Shown: positions 36,091 through 45,009 of the stretch, one piece after another
How the letters are laid out: each line of letters begins with the position of its first letter
Position numbering within the stretch: the stretch's first letter is position 1
Assembly: GCA_051294375.1 (NCBI GenBank)
Contig: CM119269.1
Coordinates: 5,529,609 to 5,593,608, forward strand
Direction of reading: 5' to 3'
Origin: Paraspadella gotoi
Taxonomy: Eukaryota; Animalia; Chaetognatha
DNA: 64,000 bases
The notes under the pieces: generated by a model
Seen by the model: only the letters and a program-made list of their open reading frames with translations
What the model was told of the DNA's origin: nothing
Database searches by the model: none
Program-made: the position numbers and the translations under genes

Positions 36091-39000
36091 CTACACTGAG
36101 CAACGTTTTTTAAAATCATAGGAGTAGGCAGTTTCGTCCGACTCTTCGTACTGCGTCACGCTCTGGTACCCATAACGCGTCGAAGCGCCGGTGCCGTAAT
36201 TGTCTTGTGACGGAGCCGGGGCGGCATAGGCGGCGTCACGCCGAGTAGGACTAGATCCGGATCGGCGCCGATCCGGACCTGATCGATGATTGTAGCACGT
36301 GCAGCTGCAAACAGAGGCAGAGTCGCTCTCGTCAAGCGCTCGCATTGGCTCACCAGAATCGACAGCGACGCTGGCGTTTGGGACGCCGCGCCCGGTGCTT
36401 TGGTGATACGCCGATGGATGGATGACGTCGCCGTCCAGTCGCGCCGCCGTCGCCTTGTGGGGGAAGAAGGAGATACTATTTTTAAAAGTCGAAAGTTATT
36501 TTAATTGGTTATGGTGGACTAAAATCCACCAACCGTTCATCAGCGGCCATTGGTGACGGAGGCAAGTCATTCGCCTCCCAACCAAAAGGTCCGGGATTCT
36601 AGCCCGTTGGCCACCTAGCAGTTAAGAGGGACGGGGCACTTAACCCGCCTGTAACATGGTGTTACAGCCTGATCCGAAGCTCAGGGACTGCTTATATTGA
36701 ACGGTTCTGTCACTAACACATAACAATTATCACTGTCTCTTCATTGGTGAGCCGACTTCCAAACACAACAGCAACAACACTTTCAGGCGACAGGCCTCAA
36801 CCTGGCGATGCACTTTCCGCCAACAACACATCAGGCGAATGCCTCAACTTGGTGACGTACTTTCCACCAACGGCAATTCACTGAAGAGACGCAACAGACT
36901 TCTCCTACGGGAGGGGGGTATGTATGGTGGACTAAATCCACAACCGTTCATAGCGGCCATTGGTGACGGAGGCAAGTCATTCGCCTCCCAACCCAAAGGT
37001 CCGGGGTTCTAGCCCAGTGGCCGCCTAGCAGTTAAGAGGGACGGGGCGCTTAACCCGCCTGTAACATGGTGTTACAGCCTGATCCGAAGCTCAGGGACTG
37101 CTTATATTGAACGGTTCTGTCACTAACACATAACATTATTATCACTGTCTCTTCATGGTCTATTTAAATTTTAAAAAAACTTTTAGGAGATTGCCCAGGA
37201 AACAGTAGGTAAATTGATGAAATATTTTATAAATTTTTGAAATAAATTCTTAATCATTAAAATTATTATTAGTACAGCTTTGAGATCACTTTGGTAGCTC
37301 TCTCTCACATTAGTGGCTCTGTTCGCGTTCTCCTACCTGCTCTGATTATTTTATTATTAAAATCACGTGATTTGGATTGAGTTTAGCTTTTAATAGCAAA
37401 ATGGCTTCGCCTAGTGAAATCTACAAGGTATAAGATAGGTTAGAGCTAAGTTCTCAATGTTTTTTAATACAATCTCCCTCACTATTGTTTAGGTTTCAAA
37501 TATATTTAAATTTTATTTTCAATTTTTTGACATTTGATGATTGATCAAAGAAAAAACAGCAACAAAGTAAAATAAAACTAAATACCCACCAAAAAAAAAA
37601 GAAAAAATTAAACTATCATTGTCAAAGATAATTGAGAAGTACAAGAGGACGATGATTCGTGGAGTACGTACTGTACTAGTACACTCAGTCTAACTGGTAG
37701 AAAACACAAGGAATGATGGAGCAAACTCAACGAAACCGCCAAAAATATTTTATCCTCTACTCTAAAGTTTAAGCCACATAGCAATTAATATTTTGCCATT
37801 TCTTGCGTCGATACTGTTCTCATTAATATTTATAAACAATATTTTGTATTTACCTGGGCGTGCTTCTCCTCGATCTCGTCTCGTTTCTCGTCTTCTGTAT
37901 TCATTGTCAAAAACCGCAGCACCAACAAGTTCATCGCGGCCGAGACGATCGTCAATCCAAAGACGATGAAGATAAGCGCGAAGGCGACGTACTCGGGGTT
38001 CTGCTGCAGAGCGCCGCGTTGCTGCAGCGCCACGAAGTCGCCGAACCCGATCGTCGTCAGCGTGATGACGCAGTAGTAGAGGGAGTCGAAATAATTCCAG
38101 GACTCCCACGTGGAGAAGACGGCGGCGCCGACGACGATGACCAGCGCCGCACAGATGCTGACCACCATGATCTGGTCGGTCTGAGTCACGCCATCGCTGC
38201 GGAACGAGAGGCACCGCTTGAACCGCTTGAGCAGGAAGCTGACGAGCGTGTTGACCCGCTCACCGATGGACTGAAACATGACAAGTCCGAGCGGGATGCC
38301 AATGAGGGCGTAGAACATGGCGAAGATCTTGCCGCCGCGGGTGTGAGGGGCGGTGTGGCCGTAGCCTGTCAAGAGTTGGGGAACGGGGGAGAGGGGAAGG
38401 GGAGCTTTCGATTTATATTTTGTTTCGGGGGGAAAAAAAAGGAACGGAAAAAACCAAAATAACAAAACATCGTAAAAATGATTTTATTTTTCTCGGTCGC
38501 GTCAGTTTTACTTCTGGTCAACGTCGTTCCTTATTTCTGTTTTTGAGGAGAAAGATAATTCTTGTTTTTTTTTGCTGATTCGAGAAAAACTTGCTAAAAA
38601 TCCATAAAACTCGGAACTGACTCTAAACTGGGGAATAATTTTTTATTCTCCTCTGGGACCGACAAAACAAGAAATAGGGAAAAAAAATGAGAACCGGCCG
38701 ACAAACATAGACTTAGTCTTAGAGGGATGCATCTCTCTCTCGATGGACGCATCTAAAAAAAAATATAGGCGTCATATTTCGTTATTTCATCGACGCAGTT
38801 TCGTTGCTGTCACTTTTATTTGTGCCGCATCGTCAGTTTTTAAAACTTGACGCTGCCGACGCGAGAAATATCTCCGTCGTCAGCTTTTACGGGCTTCAAT
38901 GTTTTGTCATCCCATCGTCGTCGGAAGACTTGAATTGCGTCGTTGAGGCACATGTGTACACCGTACAGATACTGGAATTTCAAATACAAACTGCTTAAAT

Positions 39001-40457
39001 TAAGCCTTAATACAAGCTCCTTTAAGTAAGTAGTAACCACGCCTATTTACTTCGTTGAGCTTATTGCTAAGTGCTTAGTCCCGTATATATATTATATTAT
39101 ATTATTTTGTTAATGAAAAATAAATTTCTTTAGTTGAAGTCTTTTATTTCAATTAAAAACTTGAGCAATCAGTTTCTCTTTTTATACAAATCTTAAAAGG
39201 GGAAAAAGTTTCACAGCAAAAAACGACTAAAATCCAATTTACTTTAATGAATCAAAAAAAAAAATTGACTAGTTGACCAATAGAAAACAAAGCTAGCAAC
39301 TTAAATATCAGCATAAAGACGTAAAAATCGTATCTGATTAGTTTACAGACACGAAAAACTTTAAATTAAATTAGCGACAAAAATATCGAAATATATCAGA
39401 CGATGGTGTCCCTGACGCATGATTTTCCGTCGTCGTCATCGTCGTCATCGTCTCGACGTCTCGTCGCCGTTGTCGTCGTCACCGCCGCAGCCACCGCTGC
39501 CGCAGCTGCTGTCGACGCAGCTGCTTCGCTGACGACAAACTTACGAAATCGGGAGCCGGGAATTTTCCCAGGCGTTCTCTCGTCCCCCTCAAGTTCTGTG
39601 GCGCCTCCAGCGCCTCCCGCGGCGTCGCCCGCCGAGGCCGCTCCCGCTGCGGATGCCGCTGCCACAGCGTTGCGCATGACGGCGCGACTGGCGCGGATCT
39701 TCTGGTCGACATCGTGAAGTCTGTCCGATCCATACTCGAACTCTGATGGACCCAGATCCATGAAGCCACCGTCGTCGTCTTCGTCGTCGTCGTCTTCGTC
39801 AAATTCTTCGTCGTCGTCATCGTCGTCGTACATGTCGAGGCCGACGTCGTCGCCGCCTTCGTCGTCGTCGTCATCCGTGACGAAGGGTTTCGGCTTGGCA
39901 GTTCCGTCCGTCGTGCCCTCGATAATGTGTCGCAGCTCGACCAGGCCGACCACGCCCACAAGGTGCCCGATGTTGGTCACGTAGGCCTGTTTGAGCGAGA
40001 GCAGCGAAAATAGCGAGTGGACTTTGTGGAGCGAAGTATGGGAGACGAGTTGGAAAGGAGCGGGATCGATGATGCAGCTGGAGTGGAAAGAGACAATTTT
40101 GAGGGACTTGTTTATCTTTAAAAGAAAAGATTCTTTTCCTTATTTTCTTCTTTTTTAATTTTTGATTGCCTTTTCATGATTTTATTTTCTTTTCTTTTCT
40201 TTTCTTTTCTTTTCTTTTCTTTTCTTTTCTTTTCTTTTCTTTTCTTTTCTTTTCTTTTCTTTTCTTTTCTTTTCTTATCTTAATGTACTCATTTTTAAAT
40301 TTTTTTTTCTTTTTATTGGTATTTATTGTTTCATTTTAAACGTTTTTATCAATTTATGTGATGTCTTTCTTTCTTTTTTCTTTCTTTAATTTTTAAATTT
40401 TTTTTCTTTCTTTCATTTAAAAAAAAATTGTTTTCTCCTTGCTTTCGTTCTCTAGAG

Positions 40458-40492
<35 letters not shown>

Positions 40493-43758: not shown

Positions 43759-43789
<31 letters not shown>

Positions 43790-45009
43790 AATAAAGACAG
43801 AAAGAAAGAAAGAAAATTAGGAATTAAAAAAAAAGAAAAGAAGTTAAATAGAAATAAGCTAATAAGAAAAAAAACTCTTTATAAAAATATAAAGAAGAGT
43901 TGAAGAGTTTAACATTATATTGTATAGTATTAGTAAGCTCAAATCTCTCAAAAGAGATTACGGTGCCTTTTTAAGTCATCGCGACGAGGAGGCGGAAGAC
44001 TTAAGAGCATCAGAGGCTGAAAGGCTAAAAGGCTGCAAGGCCAAGCGCTCTCGAGCGCAACAAAGATGGGAAGCATTAAATTTAAAAGTAAGAAAAACGA
44101 TAAAAAAAAATTATATTTATTATTTCATAATGGTTTTCGGATTTGACGTCATCGGCTTTGTCGCTTTTCAGCCTCGGAAAAAAAAATATTGCTAAAAAGT
44201 ATGTATTTTTTTACTCGTCTAATTTTTTTTTTCTTTTTAAGTTATGTCAAGATATTTCCTTCGGTGAGTCGATGCCCTTCAATGCCATTAACCAAACGGA
44301 GAAAAAATGGCGTTCGCCTATGTAGTTTACCTCTTTGAAAAATAGATTGTCTTGTAGGTAAAAACGAAAAAATACACTTTAATTAGTTTATTCTTATATT
44401 ACAGTATAATAATTAATTTAGCATGATTCGAAAAAAAATGATTGAAAAAAGAAATGCCATGAGCAATTAGTGACAAATTTACCGAAAATTATGTTTTTAT
44501 GTTTTTATGTTTTTATTATTTTTTGTCGGTCAAATATGCTCCTGCGAACCAAAAGTTAAAGATGTCAGTCGGAAACAACAACAATTTCGGAAAAAAGGGC
44601 TGTACATTTTACTATATAGTACAATACAGTACATCGTGCTTTGACGAGAATGAGAATGAGAACAAGAAAAAAAAAGCCCAAATCAGGGTGTATTCACTGA
44701 ATGAAAGACTGGACAACGAGACTTACCGATGGTGGTGAGCACGGTAAGGGCGAAGTAGAACGACCCGGCGAACTTCCACTGGATCCCCGCTTGATGCGGC
44801 ACGAACTTCACGATGACCTTCGACACGTTCAGCATCTCGCTCTGGGAGATGTTGAAGCGGCGCTGGAACGCCGACAGCTGATCGAAGAGCAGCGCCTTCT
44901 CCTGCCGCTCGTTCTCCGATTCCAGGTTATCGAAGATGGCGGCGCCGATGAGGAGGTAAGTGAAGGTAAGGACCACCAGCGCCAACGTGCGGATGTTCTG
45001 TTTCTTCAT
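36091..45009 (-). CDS. KCNK9: TASK-type two-pore-domain potassium channel of ~385 aa; exons 45009-44727, 38365-37854, 36453-36091
   Basis: N-terminus [28 protein letters not shown]1 TTIG|YGH with the His pH sensor, P2 [25 protein letters not shown] and SVCSCTC. C-terminal KKRCSV* resembles the TASK 14-3-3 motif. Symbol denotes the KCNK3/9 subfamily, not one-to-one orthology. Confidence 0.93.
36510..37155 (+). mobile_element. Miniature non-autonomous LTR retrotransposon (TRIM) with a tRNA-like sequence in each LTR; LTR1 36510-36743, LTR2 36923-37155
   Basis: Two near-identical ~233-bp direct repeats ending in CA. PBS-like TGGTGAGCCG at 36745, PPT GGGAGGGGGG at 36909-36918, 4-bp TSD TGGT at 36506-36509 and 37156-37159. 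Confidence 0.85.
39396..43299 (-). CDS. CLCN2: ClC-2-type voltage-gated chloride channel of ~1118 aa; exons 43299-40625 and 40077-39396; nested on the same strand in TASK intron 1
   Basis: N-terminal [16 protein letters not shown] (ClC-2 TLMYGRY region). Motifs GSGIPE, GKEGP, FAIEVT (Val at the Glu-in site, typical of channels) and GAFIP. Two CBS domains. Phase-2 intron [13 protein letters not shown]. Confidence 0.93.
40186..40620. repeat. (TTTTC)n and (TTTC)n microsatellites filling the ClC intron
   Basis: Directly visible. Confidence 0.9.

What the first reader, a model, noticed from the sequence alone, without database searches (positions are those of the whole stretch)
38366..44726. Channel inside a channel: ClC-2 nested on the same strand in the TASK intron that splits the K+ selectivity filter
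Seen: TASK exon 1 ends TTIG| (donor 44726) and exon 2 starts |YGH (acceptor 38366). The complete ClC-2 coding sequence (43299-39396) lies between them on the same strand. Known: most nested genes are antisense. Inference: a TASK pre-mRNA must read through the ClC poly(A) site and skip the ClC splice sites, so one locus could couple a background K+ conductance and a Cl- conductance, or switch between them.
Basis: partly seen in the sequence, partly recalled or inferred. Interest (0 to 1): 0.85.

Follow-up and report, generated by a model that had tools for sequence, protein, structure and literature searches.

The report
Chloride channel inside potassium-channel intron
In what is likely an arrow worm, a complete, nearly intron-free chloride-channel gene sits the same way round inside the first intron of a potassium-channel gene; this is a known kind of gene-within-a-gene layout that likely arose when an mRNA copy was inserted, and whether the two channels are co-regulated or would be cut from one shared RNA is untested.

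Summary
A 1,119-aa ClC-2 gene (43299-39396, one 547-nt intron) lies on the same strand inside the 6,361-nt first intron of a three-exon, 385-aa TASK gene. The window holds no other TASK first exon. Splitting the K+ filter is not special: that intron is ancestral in TASK genes of other animals. The new point is that this ClC-2 lacks the 5-13 core introns seen in many other animals' loci, although its neighbours are multi-exon. It is likely a retroposed, still functional copy (194 of 206 residues match a relative's core). Contigs of a likely RNA run fit a spliced ClC mRNA. The TASK exon 1-2 joint was not seen. Same-strand, intron-poor nesting is a described class (29% of fly nested genes), usually without shared expression, so K+/Cl- coupling is unsupported. 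Two hints keep a switch open. The ClC contig's 95-nt leader equals a 59-nt acceptor distance plus the 36-nt arrow-worm spliced leader. Complementary UUUC and GAAA tracts flank ClC exon 1. Both hints are weak and found after the fact. The scan noted same-strand nested channels in other genomes, but not this pair.

The parts
44727..45009 (-). TASK (K2P) coding exon 1: MKKQN start, M1, cap, pore helix 1 to TTI-G
   Evidence: 52-56% identity to residues 1-95 of TASK homologues
38366..44726 (-). TASK intron 1 (6,361 nt, phase 1, GTAAGT...ACAG); ancestral position; hosts the ClC-2 gene
37854..38365 (-). TASK exon 2: G-YGH, M2, M3, pore 2 (TTIGFG), M4
   Evidence: run X1 contig covers 37950-38241 with 0 differences
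36454..37853 (-). TASK intron 2 (1,400 nt), likely a later gain; holds a small repeated element with two terminal repeats
   Evidence: DNA-like TASK records of other animals run on through this position
36091..36453 (-). TASK exon 3, C-terminal tail ending KKRCSV-stop
   Evidence: X1 contig 35901-36145 covers stop and 3' UTR, AATAAA at 35907
40625..43299 (-). ClC-2 coding exon 1 (2,675 nt): N-terminal segment, whole membrane domain, CBS1 region and linker, no intron
40078..40624 (-). Only ClC intron (547 nt, phase 2, weak GTGAAA donor, 23% GC, mostly GAAA/GAAAA repeats); likely gained after insertion
   Evidence: X1 contig stops at the acceptor and X3 contig is joined across it; 9 intron-bearing loci of other animals lack it
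39396..40077 (-). ClC-2 exon 2: CBS2 region and acidic tail to TGA
   Evidence: X1 contigs 39836-40078 and 39199-39763
39143..39395 (-). ClC 3' UTR (contig reaches 39199); candidate poly(A) signals ATTAAA at 39248 and AATAAA at 39148 (predicted; cleavage site not seen)
43300..43360 (-). Candidate 5' acceptor (TTTTCCACAG|G, exon from 43358, 59 nt before the ATG, no AUG in between); in frame with TASK exon 1; use not shown
43627..43854 (-). (UUUC)n then (UC)n tract upstream of ClC; complementary to the GAAA tracts of the ClC intron; resembles the (UC)n tract upstream of the TASK ATG
   Evidence: (I1-I25, D9)

Best explanation
An intact, one-intron ClC-2 chloride-channel gene lies on the same strand inside the ancestral first intron of an intact TASK potassium-channel gene; it likely arrived as a retroposed mRNA copy and likely works as its own transcription unit, while TASK mRNA would be made by reading through it and splicing the whole 6.4-kb intron out. 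Shown: layout, open frames, family identity, loss of the introns other animals have, and contigs that fit a spliced ClC mRNA. Inferred: retroposition, a ClC promoter inside the intron (probably near the (UC)n tract at about 43700), the later gain of the single ClC intron, and TASK read-through. Intron poverty is likely what lets the nesting be tolerated, since it offers few splice sites to trap the TASK donor. The expected interplay is one-way interference: use of the ClC poly(A) site or acceptors by a TASK transcript would destroy that TASK mRNA. Nothing requires a selected K+/Cl- partnership.
For: Layout and frames. Families: human ClC-2 E 4e-194 ahead of ClC-1 3e-181; TASK-3/TASK-1 E 1e-61 to 5e-60 against 2e-22 for the next K2P. 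Purifying selection: 194 of 206 residues identical to unnamed relative P0251 in the core and 55 of 60 in CBS2, against 96 of 181 in the linker; TASK exon 2 110 of 141 to P0209; GC3 0.78-0.90 against 23-35% GC in non-coding parts of intron 1. Intron loss: 22 of 45 ClC loci from metagenome contigs show 2-13 inferred introns in the stretch that is one exon here, with recurrent positions near residues 179, 223, 378, 516, 587 and 637; vertebrate CLCN2 has 24 exons (PMC11948899 passage); neighbouring TTL, ArfGAP and matrixin domains are split over several ORFs. RNA-like support: X1 contig 8 (3,077 nt) stops at the ClC acceptor with 2,769 more letters, about exon 1 plus 95 nt; X3's loose end reads QLKMIVVFNG into exon 2 (read by hand). 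Class behaviour: same-strand nested fly genes are 72.5% single-exon, and multi-exon ones have a median of one intron (PMC3814207 passages).
Against: No intron-bearing parent could be sought (no genome held), and no poly(A) remnant or target-site duplication was seen on inspection. Intron-free or nearly intron-free ClC-2 also occurs elsewhere: 18 of 45 loci show none and 5 show one. Many of these are probably transcripts or short pieces, but L008 is a 10.8-kb contig, so intron loss in place followed by a DNA move is possible. P0012 and P0251, the nearest relatives, are uninterrupted but may come from RNA. The ClC promoter is not mapped. The 95-nt leader and the complementary repeats fit the shared-transcript rival as well or better. 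X1-X3 are one study, and 'RNA' is the tool's guess.
Confidence: 0.6

Rival explanations
1. One primary transcript, two channels. ClC has no promoter of its own: a spliced leader is trans-spliced onto the acceptor at 43358 inside the TASK pre-mRNA and the ClC poly(A) site is used, which forfeits TASK. Alternatively the UUUC tract pairs with the GAAA tracts of the ClC intron, loops out ClC exon 1 and favours TASK splicing.
For: Contig arithmetic gives 95 nt before the ClC ATG = 59 nt from the best nearby acceptor + 36. Chaetognath leaders are 36 nt (PMC2481426 passages), and nearly half of Paraspadella genes are trans-spliced (PMC12460157 passages). Three AUGs lie upstream of that acceptor and none downstream; no GTRAG donor lies between the TASK donor and ClC. 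By a strict pattern the only GAAA/TTTC tracts of the 64 kb are these, in opposite orientation; predicted duplex -172 kcal/mol against -123 +/- 10 for 30 shuffles.
Against: Leader letters were never seen. A contig built from 31-mers should keep at most about 30 leader bases (my reasoning), so a plain colinear 5' end at 43394 fits as well. The acceptor scores 10 and ties for rank 6-12 of 101 AGs. A leader does not imply a shared promoter. Gaps (1.0-1.4 kb) far exceed the <250 bp of described operons. TRF finds two more A/G-rich tracts in the window; an opposite pair within 3.7 kb arises in 29% of random placements (exact flanking 0.09%, chosen after the fact). (AG)n tracts elsewhere pair better than the ClC intron, and 3 of 7 control stretches also bury the donor. 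The phylum rests on other agents' notes.
Confidence: 0.15
2. The ClC gene lost its introns where it was and moved, or TASK exon 1 moved, by DNA rearrangement; no retroposition took place.
For: Intron-poor ClC-2 loci exist in other animals (L008, L011, L016). The chaetognath paper reports tandem duplication rather than a retrotransposition burst. No retro hallmarks seen.
Against: Every recurrent ancestral position is missing at once, while neighbours and the host keep introns.
Confidence: 0.13
3. Cholinergic-locus-style cis-splicing: a TASK 5' exon splices either to TASK exon 2 or to the ClC acceptor. With coding exon 1 this would give an in-frame TASK(M1-P1)-ClC-2 fusion.
For: The joint 44727-to-43358 is in frame and free of stops. 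unc-17 and cha-1 share a 5' exon in this layout (PMC3875643 passage).
Against: The frame upstream of ClC stays open in 10% of resamples. No TASK-ClC fusion among 78 longer hits of exon 1, by their listed Pfam domains (weak evidence). M1 would put ClC's cytoplasmic start outside the cell (recalled topology). The other cross-joints frameshift to early stops.
Confidence: 0.07
4. Assembly error, or TASK exon 2 uses another first exon, so there is no true nesting.
For: A long microsatellite lies between TASK exon 1 and ClC. The TASK joint was not seen in RNA.
Against: Exons are complementary in phase, order and family. The ClC-to-exon-2 link holds no tandem repeat, and that 1,030 nt has no coding exon and no GTRAG donor. 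The piece extends at least 6.9 Mb.
Confidence: 0.05

Closest known systems
Same-strand, intron-poor nested genes of Drosophila (Lee and Chang 2013, PMC3814207 passages) and mammalian host/nested pairs (PMC11694760 passages)
   Same: Complete coding gene on the host's strand, in a long first intron, with one intron; fits selection against mis-splicing.
   Different: Both partners are ion channels, and the nested gene is an old, conserved, large gene (3.36-kb CDS against a median near 0.8 kb), not a young testis-type gene.
Cholinergic gene locus: VAChT in the first intron of ChAT; unc-17/cha-1 (PMC3053374 and PMC3875643 passages)
   Same: Intron-poor membrane-transport gene nested in the host's first intron; ratio of the two mRNAs could be set by RNA processing.
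   Different: There the genes share a pathway, a non-coding first exon (worm) and deep conservation. Here the host intron follows a coding exon, no shared exon or pathway is shown, and 0 of 45 ClC loci of other animals had TASK beside them (most flanks are short).
Chaetognath spliced-leader operons (PMC2481426, PMC12460157 passages)
   Same: Same-strand neighbours; a candidate acceptor just upstream of the downstream ATG; leader length matches the contig arithmetic.
   Different: Described operons are head-to-tail housekeeping genes less than 250 bp apart, depleted of neural genes; 'nested' does not occur in the genome paper's main text or three PDF supplements.
Human ClC-2 (PDB 8ta3/7xf5) and TASK-3/TASK-1 (9g9w, 6rv2)
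   Same: Best solved-structure matches; signature motifs kept.
   Different: ClC has Phe at the central Tyr and a long acidic tail; CLCN2 has 24 exons in a vertebrate; TASK has an extra intron.

Membership tests
TASK subfamily of K2P channels | Two pore loops (TTIGYG, TTIGFG) and closest kinship to TASK-1/-3 | tested here: met
   (E 1.8e-61 against 2e-22 for the next K2P)
TASK subfamily of K2P channels | His after GYG, VLRFLT after M4, basic N-terminus, RxxV C-terminus (roles recalled, from no call) | tested here: met
   sequence GYGH, VLRFLT, MKKQN, KKRCSV; VLRFLT aligned to TASK-3
TASK subfamily of K2P channels | Intron at TTIG|YGH | tested here: met
   same break in 9 + 20 other records
TASK subfamily of K2P channels | Acid-sensitive background K+ current | not testable with these tools
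   needs expression and recording
ClC-1/ClC-2 channel branch | GSGIPE, GKEGP gate and Val at the proton-Glu position (motif roles recalled); best match ClC-2 | tested here: met
   (GSGIPE, GKEGP, FAIEVT aligned to human ClC-2)
ClC-1/ClC-2 channel branch | Central Tyr of the anion site | tested here: not met
   Phe here and in P0012, P0245, P0251; 137 of 150 matched records have Tyr, 13 Phe. It lowers 'typical ClC-2 selectivity', not family placement.
ClC-1/ClC-2 channel branch | Two CBS domains | tested here: inconclusive
   Pfam CBS not hit; both regions align to ClC-2 homologues
Retrogene | Loss of ancestral introns | tested here: met
Retrogene | Poly(A) remnant or target-site duplication | tested here: inconclusive
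   none seen on inspecting the 3' flank; expected to erode in an old copy
Retrogene | Intron-bearing parent at another locus | not testable with these tools
   no genome held
Cholinergic-locus-type coupled nesting | Same-strand nesting in the host's first intron | tested here: met
Cholinergic-locus-type coupled nesting | Shared promoter or 5' exon and co-expression | not testable with these tools
   5' half of the locus could not be compared with RNA
Cholinergic-locus-type coupled nesting | Conservation of the layout | tested here: inconclusive
   0 of 45 loci with TASK, but none of the 45 carries this lineage's motifs
Chaetognath spliced-leader operon | Organism is a chaetognath | not tested
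   taken from earlier notes e1-10588163 and e1-10588733; my tree gives only unnamed neighbours
Chaetognath spliced-leader operon | Leader on the downstream mRNA | tested here: inconclusive
   length match only
Chaetognath spliced-leader operon | Genes less than 250 bp apart, head to tail | tested here: not met
   nested, 1,427 and 1,030 nt of flanking intron; criterion

The most novel reading that the evidence does not exclude
An 'operon inside an intron': the TASK pre-mRNA is the only source of ClC-2 mRNA. Spliced-leader trans-splicing at 43358 plus cleavage at the ClC poly(A) site yields the chloride channel and destroys TASK, whereas pairing of complementary UUUC/GAAA microsatellites around ClC exon 1 hides it and yields the potassium channel. 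Each transcript would thus choose between two background conductances.
Probability: 0.12. Interest if true: 0.8.

Novelty: new member of a known kind. Interest (0 to 1): 0.42.

Why it matters
As the evidence stands it is a clean example of a known rule: same-strand nested genes are intron-poor. The unusual cast is an old, conserved chloride channel inside a background K+ channel. I found no report of this pair (paper searches; subscription papers are not searched). It offers a compact test locus for how a trans-splicing animal keeps cis-splicing across an intron that carries a second gene's acceptors and poly(A) signal. If the two mRNAs come from one transcript, it would be a splicing-level switch between K+ and Cl- leak conductances and a new use of spliced leaders in a neural-type gene.

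Tried and rejected
No whole genome held, so no search for paralogues or a parent gene. No run on record as RNA is listed; X1 holds 0.47 of the words and is only guessed to be RNA. Reads were compared with 35300-40150 only. TASK exon 1, the ClC 5' end and ClC exon 1 were not compared, so leader, shared exon and fusion remain open. In X1 no contig covers 38242-39025, so the TASK exon 1-2 joint is neither seen nor excluded. Contig depths were not used to rank the genes. Metagenome scan with P0001 found nothing; with alignment A1 it gave 45 loci, none of this lineage and none with TASK. Protein searches found no full-length close relative of TASK and no fusion. Cluster look-ups gave no names for P0012, P0209 or P0251. 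The tree is the quick version without bootstrap; it groups the window with P0251 and P0012 (SH-aLRT 100) but names no phylum. Rfam over 35000-47000: one chance-level hit. No exact copy of two 13-nt leader starts in the window. The paper search for the TASK intron gave no useful paper. PMC1657053 and PMC5622345 passages held nothing on nested operons or complementary repeat loops; listing only. The genome paper's spreadsheet supplement was too large to read and may list these genes as trans-spliced or not. Rejected as special: the filter-splitting intron (ancestral) and the open frame upstream of ClC (10% by chance). No fold or complex job was sent.
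Full report
Observation. On the minus strand TASK exon 1 (45009-44727) ends in ACCATCG|GTAAGT and exon 2 (38365-37854) follows CTCTTGACAG. The 6,361-nt intron is phase 1, inside the first Gly of GYG. With exon 3 (36453-36091) the frame is open for 385 aa. Between exons 1 and 2 lies a ClC gene of two exons (43299-40625, 40077-39396) with an open 1,119-aa frame. Five full-length TASK homologues map residues 1-95 and 95-264 to these two exons only. The 1,030 nt between the ClC stop and TASK exon 2 hold no TASK-like exon, no GTRAG donor and no tandem repeat. 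The nesting therefore does not depend on the microsatellite upstream of ClC being assembled correctly.

Identity. The ClC matches human ClC-2 at E 4e-194 and ClC-1 at 3e-181, and keeps GSGIPE, GKEGP, FAIEVT and a weak match to the ClC-2 N-terminal segment. It has Phe where 137 of 150 matched records have the central Tyr. TASK exon 2 matches TASK-3/-1 at 1e-61 to 5e-60 against 2e-22 for the next K2P. Both genes look selected: 194 of 206 and 55 of 60 identities to the unnamed relative P0251 in conserved parts against 96 of 181 in the linker, and 110 of 141 to P0209 for TASK. The best named ClC hits are only about 53% identical. A quick tree joins the window with P0251 and P0012 and names no phylum. 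Two earlier notes on this genome call it an arrow worm; I did not test that.

The filter-splitting intron is ordinary. Among TASK records fetched read TTIGYGH. Nine break off after TTIG, eight of them into residues that fit a GT donor and one, P0413, into a later exon. Twenty start in unrelated sequence just before GYGH. The intron is thus ancestral. Records of this DNA-like kind run on through the place of the window's second TASK intron, which is likely a gain.

The nested gene is intron-stripped. Of 45 ClC loci from metagenome contigs, 22 show 2-13 inferred introns in the stretch that is one exon here, 5 show one and 18 none. The zero class likely includes transcripts and short pieces but also one 10.8-kb contig. 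Positions near residues 179, 223, 378, 516, 587 and 637 recur and are all absent here. Corn-snake CLCN2 has 24 exons (PMC11948899 passage). Neighbouring TTL, ArfGAP and matrixin domains are split over several ORFs, so the genome is not generally intron-poor. The one ClC intron sits where nine intron-bearing loci are continuous (L019, L024, L026; L018, L021, L025, L028, L031, L032, the last three near-identical). It has a weak donor and is mostly GAAA/GAAAA repeat, so it is likely secondary. Retroposition is the simplest reading, but no parent, poly(A) remnant or target duplication was found.

RNA-like data. One run, X1 (RNA by guess; contigs), holds the stretch. Laid on 35300-40150, contig 8 (3,077 nt, no differences) covers 39836-40078, stops at the ClC acceptor and has 2,769 further letters, which equals exon 1 plus 95 nt. 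Contig 7 carries the 3' UTR to 39199. Two short contigs match TASK exon 2 and the TASK stop with its 3' UTR, without differences. A related organism, X3, has a contig joined across the ClC intron position (loose end read by hand as QLKMIVVFNG). All three runs are one study. The TASK joint and all 5' ends remain unseen.

Mechanism. Most likely (0.6) ClC is a separate unit with a promoter inside the intron and its own poly(A) site, and TASK is made by read-through and removal of intron 1. This matches the fly pattern: 71.3% of nested genes are opposite-strand; same-strand ones are 72.5% single-exon, otherwise have a median of one intron; and pairs are not more correlated than random pairs (PMC3814207 passages). 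Mammalian pairs show only a slight orientation bias and mostly no expression relationship (PMC11694760 passages). Nested genes make up 5-12% of genes in several animals (PMC10282587 passages; PMC4394429 passages). Mis-joints would be costly: TASK exon 1 to ClC exon 2, and ClC exon 1 to TASK exon 2, both frameshift to early stops.

The bolder reading. The 95-nt leader equals 59 nt from a TTTTCCACAG|G acceptor plus 36, the length of the chaetognath spliced leader (PMC2481426 passages); nearly half of Paraspadella genes are trans-spliced (PMC12460157 passages). Three AUGs lie upstream of this acceptor and none below it. Against this, a 31-mer contig should keep at most about 30 leader bases (my reasoning), the acceptor is not outstanding, and a leader alone does not imply a shared promoter. 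Separately, a UUUC tract upstream of ClC and GAAA tracts in its intron are complementary, with a predicted -172 kcal/mol against -123 +/- 10 for shuffles, and would bury the ClC donor. But (AG)n tracts at 46000-45701 and 50800-50501 pair better among 425 windows, 3 of 7 control stretches also bury the donor, and an opposite pair within 3.7 kb arises in 29% of random placements. I give the shared-transcript reading 0.15 and its full switch form 0.12.

Comparison. The nearest functional precedent is the cholinergic locus (PMC3053374 and PMC3875643 passages), but a shared exon, a shared pathway and conservation are not shown here; 0 of 45 foreign ClC loci had TASK in their mostly short flanks. 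Paper searches found no report of this pair, and the scan's notes hold none for it. Three notes describe same-strand or antisense nested channels in other genomes as ordinary. Verdict: real, a new member of a known kind, interest 0.42, with a cheap decisive test at the 5' ends.

Noticed in passing
window 36509-37135 (TASK intron 2): Small element with two 184-nt repeats, 97% alike and 410 nt apart, very highly covered by variant contigs in X1. Its size resembles the twister-bearing mini-LTR elements in earlier notes on this genome, but Rfam and the sequence look-up found nothing.
   Followed up: partly
window 45023 and 43311 (-): The 9-mer CCAAACTCC occurs only twice on both strands of the window, 14 and 12 nt before the TASK and ClC start codons. 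Both genes also have a (UC)n tract followed by CCAACAC upstream (76% alike over 58 nt).
   Followed up: partly
window 41590-41580 (-), ClC residue in NIFDSII: Central Tyr of the anion site is Phe here and in the three nearest relatives; may alter anion selectivity.
   Followed up: partly
P0012 / P0245 (unnamed records): A second, more divergent ClC-2 type sharing this lineage's motifs (DSHQHM, EQVKEQL); may be a paralogue or a distant relative.
   Followed up: partly
window 21518-22474 (-): Single 319-aa ORF with a signal-peptide-like start and coding-like codon use but no Pfam match.
   Followed up: no
window 3391-3648 (+), 13938-18778 (-), 24400-34600 (-), 53708-57627 (+), 59188-61394 (-): Neighbours: serine carboxypeptidase, matrixin, ArfGAP-ankyrin protein, TTL-family ligase, SPARC; the matrixin, ArfGAP and TTL domains are split over several ORFs.
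   Followed up: partly
L008 (10,773 nt), L011, L013, L014: Intron-free or nearly intron-free ClC-2 in long contigs of other animals, suggesting that intron-stripped ClC-2 arose more than once.
   Followed up: no
window 10051-10643 and 57612-58098: Tandem arrays of 23 nt (26 copies) and 59 nt (8 copies); the second starts at the end of a TTL exon and repeats its donor-like end.
   Followed up: no
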